Source: Actinomycetota bacterium (GTDB lineage Bacteria > Actinomycetota > Acidimicrobiia > Acidimicrobiales > SZUA-35). From it: DNA of 31,321 nt. Below are positions 63-17,754 of the stretch, one piece after another (position 1 is the stretch's first letter; the number at the start of each line of letters is the position of its first letter). The stretch is taken from NCBI GenBank assembly GCA_027730885.1, contig JAQCHM010000001.1, positions 1 through 31,321 on the forward strand, in the 5' to 3' direction. A program made the position numbers and the translations under genes. The notes under the pieces were generated by a model, which was given only the letters and a program-made list of their open reading frames with translations, was not told the origin of the DNA and made no database searches.

Positions 63-809
63 CTACGGGCGCTCTCTGGGCGGGCCGGCTTGGGTGAATC
101 GGGTGCCCTCGGGGTCGTTGGCCCACGCGGCAGGTTGCTCCCAGGCATCGTCGTAGACGAGTTCTTGGAGGGGGCGACGGCGTACGGGGCCGTGGTTGCC
201 TTGGGGTTTGCCGAGGGGGATCGTGGCCGCGATGGTGACCTCTTCGGGTATGCCGATGAGTTGGCGGAGTTCGTTCTCCACCATGCGATGCCAGCCGGTC
301 ATCACCCCCCCGTAGCCCAAGGCCCGCGCCGCGAGCAGCAGGTTCTGACACGCGGGGAAGATCGAGGCGCCGTCCTGGAAGGCGCGGTGACGTCCGCGGA
401 TGCAGCCGAGGACCACGACGGGGGTCTGCTCGAAATGGTCGACGAAGTGTTGCATCGCCCGGGCCGTACGCGCCTTGGGGCTGTTCTCGGCGGCTCCGCT
501 CCCCTGGTCGTAACCGTCGTCGCTCCGCTTCTCCGACCAGCCTTTGCGGAAGGCTTCGCCCAGCAACGCCTTGGCCTGCAGCGCGATGGGTCCGTCACGC
601 AGCACCACAAAGCGGAAGTTCTGCCGGTTCGAGCCGGTGGGGGCGCGGGTCGCCGAGAAGAGCATCGTCGCCAGGTCCTCGTCGAGAATCGGGTCGGACG
701 TGTAGCGGCGGATGGAACGGGTGGTGGCCAAGCCCTCGAGCAGGGGAAGCGGAGGAGGCGGAGCGAACTCGGTCGGCTCCTCCTTGGGCGACGCGGTGTC
801 GTGAATCAC
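63..809 (-). CDS. Nitroreductase-family (FMN-dependent) oxidoreductase
   Basis: Motifs RSIRRYTSDPI, RAPTGSNRQNFRFVV, NLLLAARALGYGG and IPLGKP. The GTG at 809 is the preferred start and overlaps the TGA of the upstream ORF (GTGA); the ORF track extends to TTG at 833. Confidence 0.9.
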   Translation of the reverse strand: MIHDTASPKEEPTEFAPPPPLPLLEGLATTRSIRRYTSDPILDEDLATMLFSATRAPTGSNRQNFRFVVLRDGPIALQAKALLGEAFRKGWSEKRSDDGYDQGSGAAENSPKARTARAMQHFVDHFEQTPVVVLGCIRGRHRAFQDGASIFPACQNLLLAARALGYGGVMTGWHRMVENELRQLIGIPEEVTIAATIPLGKPQGNHGPVRRRPLQELVYDDAWEQPAAWANDPEGTRFTQAGPPRERP

Positions 810-1108
810 CGGGACACGATCGCACGGATGCAAGGAAGGGACCAGCCAGCATTCCAGGCAACCAGTAGCGTCAGCCGATGCTCGCTCGCCGGGACCGACG
901 GGGTCACCTCGCCGCCGTCCCCGGGGCTCAACCAGGCCAAGGGTCGGAATTCGGCCATTGCCACCAGGACGGCGAAACAGACGAAGACGAACGGGTGATC
1001 GCCCAAGTAGGCGTCTGCGGGTGTGTGAAGCGCCATCGAGACCAAGAGCGCGAGAGCAGACCCGATTACAGCTATGAGGTAAAGGGGAAAGCTGAGACGC
1101 TTGGTCAT
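806..1108 (-). CDS. 100-aa membrane protein resembling the N-terminal transmembrane sensor region of actinobacterial c-di-GMP enzymes; probably truncated
   Basis: ATG at 1108; two clear hydrophobic helices (LYLIAVIGSALALLVSMAL, FVFVCFAVLVAMAEF), then the loop AEFRPLAWLSPGDGGEVTPS. The sequence after about 890 loses the pattern. Confidence 0.55.
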   Translation of the reverse strand: MTKRLSFPLYLIAVIGSALALLVSMALHTPADAYLGDHPFVFVCFAVLVAMAEFRPLAWLSPGDGGEVTPSVPASEHRLTLLVAWNAGWSLPCIRAIVSR

Positions 1109-1202: not shown

Positions 1203-1239
1203 TAACGAAATCGACACCCGATGTTTCCATCGGGTGTCG
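1203..1239 (-). terminator. 12-bp perfect stem with GAAA tetraloop; putative terminator or attenuator
   Basis: CGACACCCGATG (1212-1223) / CATCGGGTGTCG (1228-1239); the loop reads GAAA on the minus strand and is followed by ATTTCGTT. Confidence 0.7.
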
Positions 1240-1286: not shown

Positions 1287-1382
1287 TCACCACTTCAGGG
1301 GCGCACCGAGGGAAGCGACGAGGCCGGCGAGGGTGACGACTGCGGTGGTGGCGTTGACGGTGAACTTGGTCTTGAAGGTCAT
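1287..1382 (-). CDS. 31-aa peptide MTFKTKFTVNATTAVVTLAGLVASLGAPLKW (absent from the ORF track)
   Basis: Read by hand: AAAGGAACCCATC-ATG...AAG TGG TGA. Paralogous to 1464-1562. Confidence 0.85.
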   Translation of the reverse strand: MTFKTKFTVNATTAVVTLAGLVASLGAPLKW

Positions 1383-1463
1383 GATGGGTTCCTTTGTTGT
1401 TTCGATTGTTTGGGCTGCGTTAGACGAACTGAAGGGGGCTGGGCAGGCTGTGCGTGTGGTCAA

Positions 1464-1562
1464 TTACCACTTGCGGGGGGCGCCGAGTGACGCCACCGCG
1501 AGCATCAAACTGGCGACTGCCGTGGCGGTCCTGCCGTAGCTGAGGTTCCGAACTCGATTCAT
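1464..1562 (-). CDS. 32-aa peptide MNRVRNLSYGRTATAVASLMLAVASLGAPRKW
   Basis: RBS AAGGAG-TCCAC-ATG; ends AAG TGG TAA; C-terminal 10 residues are 9/10 identical to 1287-1382. Confidence 0.85.
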   Translation of the reverse strand: MNRVRNLSYGRTATAVASLMLAVASLGAPRKW

Positions 1563-1682
1563 GTGGACTCCTTGTCGTGATGGTTGCTTTGCCGCTGGCC
1601 AATGCATCGACGACAACCCTCTCGAGCTAAATAGGTTCATCGACTCTCCACGGCTGAGCACGCTCACCCAACGCGGCCGCGC

Positions 1683-1736: not shown

Positions 1737-2366
1737 TCAGGCCGACCGGAACCATCCGGCGATGCTGTACCGAGAGCGCTGCGCGGGGAGCACCTCGTGG
1801 GGTACCTCCTCGCTCAGGAAGACGACCAGGCGACCGTAGATCGGGGCAACCGTTCTGCTACCTTGCGCGTCGGGCTCTGACGCCGACGGTGCGTAGAGAA
1901 CCAGCGCGCCGCCGTCGTCGCTCGCCCACGCCCGGTTGAGGTAGAGCACGGTCGAGACTCGCCGGCTCGCCCCGCCGCGGAAGGCATCGCGGTGTCGCTG
2001 GTAAAAACTGCCGGCTGGGTACCAGGCGAGATGGCACTCGTACTCGAACAGCCCGAGGAACAGCGTCCGGTTGAGCTCGTTGCGCAGCGACTCGATCCAG
2101 TCGAAGTACGAGCGGGTGATCGCATCGTCGGGATCGAGCCAGAGAATGCGGTCGTTTCGCAACGATTCGTGGAGGCGGTCGTTTCCCCGGCCAACGCCGC
2201 CGAAGGCGAAGTCATCGATGGGCTGTCGCCGAGCTCGAGACCAGAGAGCATCGACGAGCTCGGGTGGCAGGGCCTCGTCGACCACCGCCACACCGTGGTC
2301 CGCGAGGCTATCGATGACCTGCGCCGCCACCTCGGCCGAGATCCGGGCCACCCCCCCTGTCGTCAC
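1737..2366 (-). CDS. 2OG-Fe(II) oxygenase, SM-20/EGLN prolyl-hydroxylase-like
   Basis: FYQRHRDAF (HxD), VLYLN, GGAL, VPHEV (distal His), RYSIAGWF (2OG-binding Arg). Start uncertain (GTG 2366 or 2351). Confidence 0.88.
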   Translation of the reverse strand: MTTGGVARISAEVAAQVIDSLADHGVAVVDEALPPELVDALWSRARRQPIDDFAFGGVGRGNDRLHESLRNDRILWLDPDDAITRSYFDWIESLRNELNRTLFLGLFEYECHLAWYPAGSFYQRHRDAFRGGASRRVSTVLYLNRAWASDDGGALVLYAPSASEPDAQGSRTVAPIYGRLVVFLSEEVPHEVLPAQRSRYSIAGWFRSA

Positions 2367-2535
2367 GTCGGGAGCGTACCCAGCGCCTCGGTCAGCTCGA
2401 CCGGTCACGAGTGGCCGAGTCACCGACCACCAGCTCGCCGAGCAGCGGTCGATCCGTTCGACGGACAGGGCGGCCGTCTGATAGCACGGGCAGGCACACA
2501 TTCCGTCACCCGGTGACACGTCGAGGAGGACCGCC

Positions 2536-2856
2536 ATGCTGTTCGAGCTACGCCAGTACCGCTGCCACGAGGGCCAGCGCGACAATTGGGTTCGCTACAT
2601 GGAGGAGGTCATCATCCCGTTCCAGGTGAGCAAGGGAATGGTGATTGCCGGCAGCTTCACCGGCGAGGACGAGGACAACCTGTACATCTGGATCCGCCGG
2701 TTTGCCTCCGAGGAGGAGCGGGCGGCCCTGTACAAGGCCGTCTACAAGAGCGACACCTGGGTCAACGACATCTCCCCCAAGATCCCCGAGATGCTGGACC
2801 GGGAACAGATCAAGGTCACCCGGCTCATCCCCACTGCCAAGTCGATCATCAGCTGA
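2536..2856 (+). CDS. NIPSNAP family protein
   Basis: N-terminal LFELRQY, YIWIRRF; 106 aa; RBS GAGGAGGA. Confidence 0.85.
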   Translation: MLFELRQYRCHEGQRDNWVRYMEEVIIPFQVSKGMVIAGSFTGEDEDNLYIWIRRFASEEERAALYKAVYKSDTWVNDISPKIPEMLDREQIKVTRLIPTAKSIIS

Positions 2857-2929: not shown

Positions 2930-3630
2930 TTTGGCACCCGATTCCAATCGCCAAGACCACCGTGTAGCAGATCCTCACCGACAACGGCATCGAACCATCC
3001 CCGAACCGATCCGAGGTGACCTGGACCGAGTTCCTGCACTCCCAAGCAGCGGTCGCGTGCGACTTCTTCACCGTCGACACCGCGTTCCTACGCCGCTACT
3101 ACGTCCTGTTCTTCATCAACGTCAACACCCGCGAAGTGTTCTACGCCGGCCTCACCGCCAACCCCACCGGCGCCTGGACCACCCAAGCAGCCCACAACCT
3201 CTTCCTGCGCCACGGCGAACAACTCGACACTGCTCGGGCACTGGTCCGCGACCGCGGAAGCCAATTCGTTGACTCGTTCGACGAGATCTTCCGGACCGAA
3301 GGCTTCAAGATCCTCCAAACGCCCGTCCGGACCGCGGTCGCCAACACCTTCGCAGAGCGCTGGATCGGATCGATCCGCCGAGAACTCCTCGACCGCACCA
3401 TCATCTGGAACCGCCGCCAGCTCGAACGACTCGTCGGCGACTACATCGAACACTACAACCAGCATCGGCCACACCAATCCCTCGGCCAGCGCCCGCCAAC
3501 ACCGGACCACGGTCCACCCGAGGCTCCGCCAGCGACCGTCACCGTGCTGCGCACCAGCCGATGCGACGGCCTCATCCACGAATACCGAAACGCCGCCTAA
3601 CCAGCCACGACCGACTTTCCGGGCGGCACA
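2930..3630 (+). mobile_element. 5'-truncated DDE (rve) integrase/transposase remnant, pseudogene
   Basis: ACDFFTVDT, LVRDRG, AERWIGSIRRELLD and HYNQHRPHQSL; in-frame TAG at 2965-2967 in IAKTTV*QIL; no N-terminal HTH; stop at 3600; possible terminal ACA at 3628-3630. Confidence 0.85.
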
Positions 3631-4485: not shown

Positions 4486-4563
4486 TGGTCGGGCTGGGGA
4501 GATTCGAACTCCCGACCTCTTGACCCCCAGTCAAGCGCGCTAACCAAACTGCGCCACAGCCCG
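4486..4563 (-). tRNA. tRNA-Pro (anticodon GGG), CCA encoded
   Basis: Acceptor CGGGCTG/CAGCCCG, anticodon arm CTTGA-CTGGGGG-TCAAG, T arm GGGAG-TTCGAAT-CTCCC. Confidence 0.97.
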
Positions 4564-4864: not shown

Positions 4865-5403
4865 TCAGCTCCAAACGCCGAAGCCCAGTCCGGCGCCGGT
4901 TCCCGCCGGCGTCCTGTATCCCGGGACGTAGTCGATTAGTTCGAAGCGTCGATCGGAAAGCATGGCCGCGGTGACCAACCAGTTCTTCACCTCGGAGGTG
5001 CCCGCGACGAAGGTCGACTCGGGAATGGCAACGACGGCATCGAGGTCGCCGGCCTCCAGTGCTGCGAGCACCCGCCGATCGAACTCCTCGAGCACGATGA
5101 AGTGGCTCAGGCCTCCAGAAGCGACGACCCCGATTCGAGTGTCGGCATCGAAACTGTCGACGGCGGATCGAAGCATCCGCCCGAAGTCACGACAACGAGC
5201 GGCGCGGGGCTGCGTCGGCGGGTTGTACGTGTTGACCATGATGGGCACGATCGGGACATCACCCAGAAGCCGCCGAAGCGGGAACCCGAAGGCATGACCC
5301 ATGCCCAACTCGGGCCGCGGCAACGATTCGCTTGCCGCAACGTCGAAGCCGACCGACATCGCGGTGTCGATCAGGTGCTTCGCAAGGTCGACCGCCACCA
5401 GCG
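4865..5403 (-). pseudogene. C-terminal half of a LigB-family (class III) extradiol dioxygenase, fused in frame to the hemolysin III fragment
   Basis: GHAFGF, IVPIMVNTY, ASGGLSH, GTSEVKNW and YVPGYRTPAGTG; the N-terminal SH and D/N-H iron ligands are missing. Confidence 0.8.
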
Positions 5404-5728
5404 TGGTGGCCCCGGCAAGGTGCACGAAGATCATCGAATGGTCGAGACGACGCATCCAGAAGCGTGCGGTCGGGCTCTGCGCCAGGCGGTGGTAACAGGC
5501 GCTCGTCGTGAACATGAGGGTCCACGTGATGGCGTAGACCAGGGCGACGCCCGGTGAGCCGGCGGCGGTGGCCTTCGTCACCAGGTGGACACCGGCCGGC
5601 ACCGAGGCAATCGCAGCTACGTGGTGGAGGCGCCCTCGCAAGCGAGGCCGAGGGCCGTACACCGGATGAGTGAGAACATCGTGCAAACCGCCGAATTCGA
5701 ATCTTGAGTGGAGGATTAAGGCGGTCAT
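5404..5728 (-). pseudogene. N-terminal half of a hemolysin III (HlyIII/PAQR) membrane protein
   Basis: RPRLRGRLH, SACYHR and RRLDHSMIF; breaks off after AGATT, where TP and further TM helices are expected. Confidence 0.82.
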
Positions 5729-17648: not shown

Positions 17649-17754
17649 GTGGCGGCCAGACGGTCTGCGGCGCTCCGGGGGATCCGCTGAGAGCTGCTGC
17701 CTTCCGGCCCTGACTCGGTTCACGGTCTCCGGACGCACAGGGTCCGACCGCCAC
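17649..17754 (-). ncRNA. ffs: Bacterial small signal recognition particle RNA (4.5S)
   Basis: Helix-8 motif GTCAGGGCCGGAAGGCAGCAGC; closing stem GTGGCGG/CCGCCAC; canonical position upstream of dnaX. Confidence 0.93.

What the first reader, a model, noticed from the sequence alone, without database searches (positions are those of the whole stretch)
1287..1562. Tandem unannotated micropeptides sharing a C-terminal VASLGAP(R/L)KW motif: candidate peptide signals
Seen: two 31/32-aa ORFs, each with a strong RBS (AAGGAG, AAAGGA), a basic N-terminus, a hydrophobic core (TAVxxL conserved) and 9/10 identical last residues. In those 10 codons there are 5 synonymous third-position differences, one amino-acid change (R/L) and different stop codons (TAA/TGA), which indicates purifying selection on the peptide rather than on the DNA. 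The ORF track misses one copy and gives the other a spurious extension. Established: Gram-positive pheromones (streptococcal SHP/ComS, staphylococcal AgrD) are short precursors encoded beside their receptor, with the active moiety released after export. Inference: this is a signalling or regulatory peptide pair for the neighbouring membrane protein, and I do not recognise it as a named family.
Basis: partly seen in the sequence, partly recalled or inferred. Interest (0 to 1): 0.85.

Follow-up and report, generated by a model that had tools for sequence, protein, structure and literature searches.

The report
Tandem micro-proteins of MASE9 sensor module
Two real, unannotated 31- and 32-codon genes encode tiny one-helix membrane proteins of an undescribed family that, in relatives, always sits just upstream of a membrane sensor (MASE9 domain) whose signal is unknown; in this genome a 3.35-kb deletion has removed that sensor.

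Summary
Two minus-strand sORFs (1464-1562, 32 aa; 1287-1382, 31 aa) have Shine-Dalgarno sites, a basic N-terminus, one hydrophobic helix and a shared C-terminal LGAPxKW. They are under purifying selection: dN/dS is 0.08 against a same-genus MAG.

They belong to an unnamed family of 28-41-aa proteins in Acidimicrobiia and at least two further groups of families outside that class in Actinomycetota. The tail is G-A-[P/G/D]-x-K-W, with x hypervariable.

In 42 of 44 evaluable loci the next gene on the same strand encodes a MASE9-like polytopic sensor. It is fused to GGDEF-EAL in Acidimicrobiia and to histidine kinase in other lineages, so the micro-protein tracks the membrane domain, not the output. 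DUF5317, a five-helix membrane protein with two invariant aspartates and no structural relative, is a frequent third neighbour.

The likeliest role is a membrane-resident partner or ligand of the MASE9 sensor. An Agr-like processed signal is not excluded and not shown.

In this window a 3.35-kb deletion removed most of the sensor and DUF5317, leaving the sORFs orphaned. Nearly identical estuary strains keep the sensor.

No paper found describes the module. This scan has noted micro-protein/MASE9/DUF5317 modules of this kind on other genomes.

The parts
1464..1562 (-). sORF-B: a 32-aa micro-protein gene with a basic N-terminus, one TM helix and the tail LGAPRKW; stop TAA
   Evidence: 97% identical in G003, with 5 synonymous and 1 non-synonymous codon differences. 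Profile E 3e-14 in the representative library.
1568..1573 (-). Shine-Dalgarno AAGGAG of sORF-B, 5 nt before the ATG
   Evidence: A purine-rich site (AGGAG) is kept in G003.
1287..1382 (-). sORF-A: a 31-aa paralogous micro-protein gene with the tail LGAPLKW; stop TGA
   Evidence: 6 synonymous and 2 non-synonymous codon differences against G003. The single copies in same-family genomes G022 and G006 look A-like by eye.
1390..1395 (-). Shine-Dalgarno AAAGGA of sORF-A, 7 nt before the ATG
   Evidence: Conserved in G003.
1212..1239 (-). Terminator-like hairpin after sORF-A: 12-bp stem, GAAA loop, tail ATTTCGTT. It lies between the sORFs and the sensor gene.
   Evidence: The stem is kept in G003 through an A-to-G change that gives a G-U pair. 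The 186-nt spacer folds with z = -5.4.
806..1108 (-). Remnant of the MASE9-like GGDEF-EAL sensor gene. The first ~67-74 codons (about 887-1108) are homologous to the 677-aa G003 protein; the rest of the 100-aa ORF is out-of-context sequence.
   Evidence: (77% identity over residues 1-74).
902..909 (.). Deletion junction. Relative to G003 about 3.35 kb is missing: the sensor from about codon 69 on, the DUF5317 gene and about 1 kb more.
   Evidence: window 1298-902 matches L023 6922-7320, then window 907-882 matches L023 10675-10700 and window 887-62 matches L023 10808-11625.: a contig from run X1 spans the junction, while contigs from estuary runs X2 and X3 leave the window at 902 and continue with the intact sensor sequence.

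Best explanation
The two sORFs encode bitopic micro-proteins: N-terminus in the cytoplasm, one transmembrane helix, and a short outer tail G-A-P-x-K-W. They belong to an undescribed family. The micro-protein most likely acts inside the membrane of the producing cell as the dedicated partner of the MASE9-like polytopic sensor domain encoded just downstream. It could be a co-sensor, a regulator or the ligand. It thereby sets the activity of whatever output that sensor carries: c-di-GMP synthesis and breakdown (GGDEF-EAL) in Acidimicrobiia, histidine-kinase signalling in other Actinomycetota. DUF5317, a five-helix membrane protein with two invariant aspartates that should face outwards, is a frequent third member and may bind, present or trim the micro-protein's outer tail. 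Shown here: the genes are real and selected as protein; synteny with MASE9-like sensors holds across output types; the pair was duplicated as a unit; DUF5317 is linked. Inferred: the topology, physical binding and the direction of regulation. In this window the module is broken. A 3.35-kb deletion removed most of the sensor and DUF5317, so the two intact sORFs are orphans, probably recent ones.
For: 1. Coding and selection. dN/dS is 0.08 against G003, and about 0.12-0.29 (mean dN / mean dS) within three other subfamilies. RBS and start codons are conserved, while the spacer carries indels.
2. The family. There are 14 clusters of 28-34 aa in 1.84 billion representatives. Whole-genome hits came from Acidimicrobiales, from other orders of the class, and from three families outside the class. 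In a 51-sequence alignment G is 50/51, A 51/51, K 47/51 and W 51/51. The x position has 3.08 bits of entropy. Net charge is +2.9 over the first 10 residues and +1.3 over the last 8.
3. Synteny. A MASE9-like sensor lies downstream on the same strand in 42 of 44 evaluable loci. The distance from the sORF stop to the start of the MASE9 match is 38-349 nt in the loci measured.
4. Output-independent pairing. The sensor carries GGDEF-EAL in Acidimicrobiia, but HisKA-HATPase_c or GAF-HisKA in families f120, f115 and f148.
5. Co-duplication. Genomes of f19 and f53 each hold a P-type (LGAPRKW) and a D-type (LGADRQW) micro-protein. Their sensors form two separate clades (92/86 and 100/99 support), and each clade contains both families.
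6. Specificity. In five genomes the sORF precedes 10 of the 13 closest MASE9-like paralogues and none of the 12 distant ones.
7. DUF5317. It is adjacent in about 30 loci, either downstream of the sensor or divergent from the sORF, at Pfam E 1e-22 to 1e-29. Its invariant residues include LGD and SxGD.
8. Literature. MASE9 has no known ligand, and its describers proposed ligand binding within the membrane (Galperin and Chou, bioRxiv 10.1101/2021.11.05.467447).
Against: There is no direct evidence of translation, membrane insertion or binding. The complex prediction gave no verdict and counts neither way. Two weaker family hits (G655, G646) have no sensor nearby. The f120 kinase loci have no DUF5317 within 6 kb, so the trio is not obligatory. 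The signal-peptide-like build and the hypervariable tail residue fit a processed signal equally well. In this genus a terminator-like hairpin separates the sORFs from the sensor gene, which would also suit a cis-regulatory role. The Pfam MASE9 matches are weak (18-31 bits against a cut-off of 24.3), so 'MASE9-like' is the safe term.
Confidence: 0.55

Rival explanations
1. Agr-like peptide signalling. The micro-protein is a precursor that DUF5317 (acting as a new intramembrane aspartyl peptidase) cleaves near the conserved V-A-x-L-G-A site. A fragment is released, with export helped in some loci by a fused MFS transporter. The MASE9 sensor of the same or neighbouring cells then senses it, and the hypervariable x residue sets specificity.
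For: The build is signal-peptide-like: a basic n-region, an h-region and a small-residue motif before P/G/D. The x position is hypervariable between invariant neighbours, and the two window copies differ there, R versus L. DUF5317 has two invariant aspartates 18 residues apart in LGD and SxGD motifs. The positive-inside rule (my inference) places both on the outer face. In D-type loci DUF5317 is fused to, or runs into, an MFS transporter. Peptide type tracks sensor clade.
Against: DUF5317 has no detectable relation to any protease by sequence or by fold: Foldseek best E is 1.1, and VIA best Z is 7.6 on helical hairpins only. Cleavage at the motif would free only 4-8 residues. Kinase-type loci lack an adjacent DUF5317. 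There is no AgrB, no ABC exporter with a peptidase domain and no conserved cysteine. No data on secretion exist.
Confidence: 0.2
2. Cis-acting leader peptide. Translation of the sORF, perhaps with ribosome pausing at the conserved G-A-P-x-K-W-stop, controls transcription termination or translation initiation of the sensor gene. The peptide itself has no function in trans.
For: The C-terminal motif next to the stop codon is the best-conserved part. The spacing is short or overlapping in many loci. In this genus a terminator-like hairpin and a strongly structured spacer (z = -5.4) lie between sORF-A and the sensor gene.
Against: Hydrophobicity and the small-residue pattern of a TM helix are conserved along the whole peptide across classes. 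An arrest peptide would not need that. One to five extra residues after W are tolerated. Distance to the sensor varies from overlap to about 350 nt, and one locus has an intervening ORF about 850 nt long. G646 keeps an sORF beside DUF5317 with no sensor. No Rfam element is present and the leader upstream of sORF-B is unstructured.
Confidence: 0.1
3. RiPP precursors modified by the 2OG-Fe(II) oxygenase encoded directly upstream (1737-2585, minus strand).
For: The oxygenase lies next to the sORFs in both G000 and G003. It has a very weak NCBIfam similarity to the cyclophane-peptide oxygenase YhhC: E 0.035, 13.8 bits against a cut-off of 150.
Against: The oxygenase occurs beside the sORFs only in this genus. 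A tblastn of it against every locus fetched up to that point hit none outside G000 and G003. The YhhC score is far below its cut-off. There is no leader/core architecture and no protease or exporter.
Confidence: 0.03
4. Small hydrophobic type I toxins, or chance ORFs in GC-rich DNA.
For: The ORFs are short, hydrophobic and tandemly duplicated, as type I toxin genes such as ldr and ibs are (from my own knowledge).
Against: Purifying selection, a motif conserved across classes and fixed synteny with one sensor family argue against both. No antisense RNA feature was seen.
Confidence: 0.02

Closest known systems
MgrB-PhoQ, SafA-PhoQ and MzrA-EnvZ: small bitopic membrane proteins that regulate sensor kinases (for example PMC8404706, and the review PMC12648545, found)
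   Same: A protein of about 30-50 residues with one TM helix and a short conserved extracytoplasmic part, proposed to act on a membrane sensor within the same cell.
   Different: There is no sequence relation. Here the partner is a polytopic MASE9-like domain with no periplasmic sensor domain. The micro-protein gene is fixed directly upstream of the sensor gene and is co-duplicated with it. Outputs include c-di-GMP enzymes. Binding is not shown.
Staphylococcal Agr system (AgrD precursor, AgrB membrane peptidase, AgrC polytopic histidine-kinase receptor)
   Same: A gene trio of small peptide, polytopic membrane protein and polytopic membrane receptor. The peptide has a polymorphic residue or region that tracks receptor clades.
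   Different: There is no AgrB homologue, no thiolactone cysteine and no HPK10 kinase. DUF5317 has no detectable protease fold. The peptide is essentially one TM helix. Secretion is not shown.
MASE9-containing signalling proteins (Galperin and Chou, bioRxiv 10.1101/2021.11.05.467447; T. maritima TM1467, S. venezuelae HdgA)
   Same: The downstream genes carry a MASE9-like membrane domain of about 8 TM segments joined to GGDEF-EAL or histidine-kinase modules. The paper states that the signal is unknown and proposes ligand binding within the membrane.
   Different: The paper describes no partner micro-protein and no DUF5317 link. The Pfam matches here are borderline (E 1e-3 to 3e-7).
Lipoprotein signal peptides and LspA (signal peptidase II)
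   Same: The peptide has an n-region and h-region followed by L-G-A, which resembles a lipobox without its cysteine. DUF5317 has two invariant aspartates spaced about as in LspA.
   Different: There is no cysteine after the L-G-A motif. DUF5317 does not match Peptidase_A8. No LspA structure appeared among the matches listed by the two fold searches.

Membership tests
Micro-protein / MASE9 sensor / DUF5317 module (undescribed in papers; noted repeatedly by this scan) | ORF of about 25-40 codons with a basic N-terminus, one hydrophobic helix and a conserved short C-terminal motif | tested here: met
Micro-protein / MASE9 sensor / DUF5317 module (undescribed in papers; noted repeatedly by this scan) | Located directly upstream of a MASE9-type membrane sensor gene, on the same strand | tested here: met
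   In the window only the first ~67-74 codons of the sensor remain. The orthologous locus in G003 has the full 677-aa MASE9-GGDEF-EAL gene. Overall 42 of 44 evaluable loci meet this.
Micro-protein / MASE9 sensor / DUF5317 module (undescribed in papers; noted repeatedly by this scan) | A DUF5317 (PF17248) gene adjacent | tested here: not met
   No DUF5317 in the window; it was lost with the deletion. It is present right after the sensor gene in G003 and adjacent in about 30 other loci. It is absent within 6 kb in the f120 kinase loci.
AgrD-type autoinducing peptide precursors | An adjacent AgrB-family membrane peptidase and a conserved cysteine (or serine) that forms the thiolactone ring | tested here: not met
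   Pfam scans of the neighbours gave no AgrB. No conserved cysteine in the 51-sequence alignment.
RRNPP / Rgg-SHP / ComRS short pheromones | An adjacent cytoplasmic TPR-type receptor-regulator (Rgg, ComR, PlcR) | tested here: not met
   The neighbours are a 2OG oxygenase, the sensor remnant and a nitroreductase. In relatives they are the MASE9 sensor and DUF5317.
MgrB-like small-protein regulators of membrane sensors (a functional class, not a homology family) | Physical binding to the sensor's membrane or periplasmic part, and modulation of its output | not testable with these tools
   The complex prediction of the MASE9 domain with the micro-protein returned 'no answer', which is no evidence either way.
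Ribosome-arrest or leader peptides (TnaC, SecM, MifM) | A conserved arrest motif at a fixed position relative to the stop or pause site, coupled to an RNA switch that controls the downstream gene | tested here: inconclusive
   The motif lies next to the stop, but 1-5 extra residues are tolerated. The distance to the sensor is variable. A terminator-like hairpin was found only in this genus; other spacers were not folded.
Bacterial lipoprotein signal peptides | A lipobox ending in an invariant cysteine | tested here: not met
   The position after L-G-A is P, G, D, N or S, never C.

The most novel reading that the evidence does not exclude
The micro-protein is the long-missing signal of MASE9 sensors. 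Together with DUF5317 acting as a new kind of intramembrane peptidase, it would form a three-part peptide signalling system: precursor, processing protein and polytopic receptor. Such a system would be Agr-like in logic but unrelated in sequence. It would wire cell-cell or envelope-state information straight into c-di-GMP turnover or two-component signalling in Actinomycetota and, according to earlier unchecked notes of this scan, in other phyla. The tandem R-type and L-type copies in this genus would then be two specificity variants.
Probability: 0.2. Interest if true: 0.9.

Novelty: new variant of a known kind. Interest (0 to 1): 0.62.

Why it matters
MASE9 is a widespread membrane sensor domain on c-di-GMP enzymes and histidine kinases, and no signal or partner is known for it. 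Here a roughly 30-residue membrane protein is inherited with the domain, duplicated with it, and stays with it whatever output module follows. That makes it a concrete and cheap-to-test candidate for the partner or ligand. DUF5317 is a second candidate, a family that no paper in the searched library mentions. It would add a case of small-protein control to c-di-GMP signalling, and it shows how many such genes are invisible to annotation: every member found is unnamed or 'hypothetical'. For this genome in particular, a natural deletion removed the sensor and DUF5317 but left the sORFs, while near-identical strains keep the sensor. That is a ready-made comparison.

Tried and rejected
1. Complex prediction. 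MASE9 domain of G003 (239 aa, 28-row alignment) with sORF-B (51-row alignment) scored 0.11 against a mark of 0.32. The verdict was 'no answer', and I do not use it for or against binding.
2. Pfam and NCBIfam scans of the two peptides at E up to 10 gave no family. The ESM Atlas look-up returned only unnamed clusters of 32-34 aa, which is weak evidence.
3. DUF5317 as an LspA-like or other known protease. There was no Peptidase_A8 hit at E below 0.5 and no PDB sequence relative. Foldseek's best E was 1.1. The VIA-align wide search gave a best Z of 7.6 on two-helix pieces. Kinship is therefore not shown. Only the local two-aspartate layout resembles LspA, and that comparison rests on my memory of LspA motifs.
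4. RiPP reading through the adjacent 2OG oxygenase. The neighbourhood is not conserved outside this genus.
5. The idea that the sORF is a split-off first helix of the sensor. The sensor domains have about 7-8 hydrophobic segments of their own, and no long ORF with the full motif was found.
6. Riboswitch or known RNA near the sORFs. Nothing real turned up; a bxd_5 hit at 21 bits is chance.
7. The search for related loci with the broad alignment failed because it had no conserved stretch. The narrow alignment worked and gave the taxon names.
8. No RNA runs hold the stretch, so there is no expression evidence.

Full report
**The observation**

The window carries two small ORFs on the minus strand.
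- sORF-B is 1464-1562: 32 aa, stop TAA, with AAGGAG five nt before the ATG.
- sORF-A is 1287-1382: 31 aa, stop TGA, with AAAGGA seven nt before the ATG.

Both have a basic N-terminus, one 17-residue hydrophobic stretch (Kyte-Doolittle mean 1.7-1.8) and 9 of 10 identical last residues. The mechanical ORF list shows both only as longer forms with TTG or GTG starts. Those extensions cross indels in the alignment with a same-genus genome, so they are not conserved.

**Are they genes?**

The window lies in a fragmented MAG: 482 contigs, 87% complete. A better assembly of the same genus, G003, is titled 'uncultured Acidimicrobiales bacterium'. It has both sORFs in the same order.

Between the two genomes the sORFs differ at 11 synonymous and 3 non-synonymous codons (dN 0.022, dS 0.288, ratio 0.08). 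The start codons and ribosome-binding sites are kept, and the spacer between the copies is poorly conserved. Three other subfamilies give mean dN over mean dS of about 0.12-0.29.

A profile of five members, searched against 1.84 billion representative proteins, returned 14 clusters. All are 28-34 aa long and align end to end. Every member looked up is unnamed or 'hypothetical protein'. Pfam and NCBIfam have no model for them.

**The family**

Whole-genome six-frame searches found members in several places:
- in several Acidimicrobiales families;
- in other orders of the class;
- in three families of other classes of the phylum, among them f120 in 12 of 21 genomes sampled and f115 in 5 of 26.

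The distribution is patchy. About 3-5% of the sampled genomes have a member, and only one of the five other genomes of this genus does.

In a 51-sequence alignment the tail is G (50/51), A (51/51), then P, G or D, then x, then K (47/51), then W (51/51), followed by 0-5 further residues. The x position is among the most variable columns (3.08 bits). An arginine marks the inner end of the helix (42/51). Net charge is +2.9 at the N-terminus and +1.3 at the C-terminus. By the positive-inside rule this suggests N-in, C-out. That topology is an inference.

**Neighbourhood**

In G003 the gene after sORF-A is a 677-aa MASE9-GGDEF-EAL protein, followed by a DUF5317 gene.

I checked the gene downstream of the micro-protein in every locus with enough flank. 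A MASE9-like sensor follows on the same strand in:
- 18 of 18 further Acidimicrobiales loci;
- the window itself, as a remnant;
- 6 of 8 class-level loci, one of them with an intervening ORF;
- 17 of 17 phylum-level loci.

That makes 42 of 44. The two exceptions are the weakest family hits. One of them sits beside a DUF5317 gene without a sensor.

The key result is that outside Acidimicrobiia the sensor's output is HisKA-HATPase_c, or GAF-HisKA, instead of GGDEF-EAL. The micro-protein therefore follows the membrane domain, not the output domain.

Genomes of families f19 and f53 carry two pairs each, one with tail LGAPRKW and one with LGADRQW. The sensors of the two types form separate clades (92/86 and 100/99 support), and each clade contains both families. 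So the pair was duplicated as a unit before those families split. Relatives share labels, so this shows co-inheritance and is not a statistical test of co-evolution.

In five genomes the sORF precedes 10 of the 13 closest MASE9-like paralogues and none of the 12 distant ones.

**A third component**

A tblastn with the G003 DUF5317 protein hit about 30 of the loci. The gene lies either just after the sensor gene (f1, f63) or divergent from the micro-protein gene (f19, f53, f44, f89, f115, f148). Pfam confirms it at E 1e-22 to 1e-29. In D-type loci it runs into an MFS transporter.

The f120 kinase loci lack it within 6 kb, although those genomes have copies elsewhere.

DUF5317 has five helices (AlphaFold2 model, pLDDT 84). 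Its invariant residues include N-x-G-x-M-P, F-x-N-S, L-G-D and S-x-G-D. The two aspartates should face outwards by the positive-inside rule, which is again an inference. It has no sequence relative and no structural relative among solved structures. No paper in the searched library mentions it.

**This window's locus is broken**

Window 1298-902 matches G003 up to codon ~69 of the sensor. The match then jumps about 3.35 kb to the nitroreductase region. The own genome holds no other copy of the orthologous sensor; the best other match is 42% identical.

A contig from run X1, probably the source sample, spans the junction without a difference. Contigs from an independent estuary study (X2 and X3, mostly 99% or more alike) leave the window at 902. 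They continue with sequence that encodes the next residues of the intact sensor as in G003. The deletion is therefore a strain-level allele. The two sORFs here are intact orphans.

A 12-bp terminator-like hairpin follows sORF-A and is kept in G003. The spacer is strongly structured (z = -5.4). The leader upstream of sORF-B is not. No Rfam element is present.

**Interpretation**

The best-supported reading is a membrane-resident micro-protein that is the dedicated partner of the MASE9-like sensor, as co-sensor, regulator or ligand. DUF5317 would be a frequent accessory. I put this at about 0.55.

This fits the only published statement on MASE9, which says its ligand is unknown and probably binds within the membrane. 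It resembles small-protein control of sensor kinases such as MgrB-PhoQ.

Three things fit an Agr-like logic: the signal-peptide-like build, the hypervariable x residue, and a neighbouring membrane protein with an aspartate pair that is sometimes fused to an exporter. But nothing shows cleavage or export, DUF5317 has no detectable protease kinship, and a released tail would be only 4-8 residues long.

The other rivals rank lower:
- A purely cis-acting leader peptide (about 0.1) is disfavoured by the conserved helix character, by tolerated C-terminal extensions and by the variable spacing.
- A RiPP role for the adjacent 2OG oxygenase is unlikely because that neighbour is genus-specific.

**Relation to earlier notes of this scan**

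I found the DUF5317 link before looking it up. The notebook of the scan then showed that a 'micro-protein + MASE9 sensor + DUF5317' module of this kind has been reported on other genomes, with GGDEF-EAL, HD-GYP and kinase outputs. Those notes also say that DUF5317 has an LspA-like aspartate layout but a different fold. My own tests agree on the points I could check. The claims about other phyla and about HD-GYP partners I did not test.

**Novelty**

No paper found describes the family or the module. As a kind, small membrane proteins that act on sensors and peptide/receptor pairs are both known. I therefore rate it a new variant of a known kind. The value lies in giving MASE9 and DUF5317 testable partners.

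Noticed in passing
window 902-909 (junction); compare L023:7321-10674: About 3.35 kb is deleted relative to the same-genus genome G003. The deletion removes most of the sensor gene, the DUF5317 gene and about 1 kb more. It is supported by a contig from run X1, while estuary runs X2 and X3 carry the undeleted allele.
   Followed up: yes
window 1474 (inside sORF-B, G-run 1475-1480 on the + strand): One low-depth contig of run X2 has an in-frame GGG insertion. It would add a proline codon inside the conserved tail (GAPPRKW). It could be a homopolymer error or a natural variant.
   Followed up: no
window 4865-5728, minus strand: One 287-aa ORF matches HlyIII with its N-terminal part (residues 27-112) and LigB dioxygenase with its C-terminal part (residues 111-281). 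This looks like a second rearrangement junction in the window.
   Followed up: partly
window 3016-3600, plus strand: A fragment of an rve-type integrase or transposase (rve_3, E 1e-14) lies between the sORF region and the tRNA gene at 4489-4563. Mobile-element activity could explain the rearrangements nearby.
   Followed up: no
L118 (G003:C6:306688-310374), sORF at L118:2308-2430 minus strand: The second module in G003 has a divergent 41-aa micro-protein that keeps G-A-P-x-K but replaces the W and adds 13 residues. It is followed by a MASE9-like sensor gene and DUF5317. The window's own genome has the matching sensor-DUF5317 pair at the start of contig C456, with the upstream part cut off.
   Followed up: partly
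L054, L055, L057, L061 (D-type loci of G154, G128, G182, G116): Here DUF5317 is the N-terminal part of an ORF of 640-750 aa whose remainder is an MFS transporter (MFS_1 and, in two of the three ORFs scanned, MFS_3). It is either a true fusion or two tightly abutting genes.
   Followed up: partly
control genomes: PF17248 (DUF5317) is also found in Thermotoga maritima and Thermus thermophilus. T. maritima TM1467 is the founding MASE9 protein, so the link may reach far beyond Actinomycetota.
   Followed up: no
window 17651-17749 and 4489-4563, minus strand: Signal recognition particle RNA (68 bits) and a tRNA gene, both ordinary.
   Followed up: no
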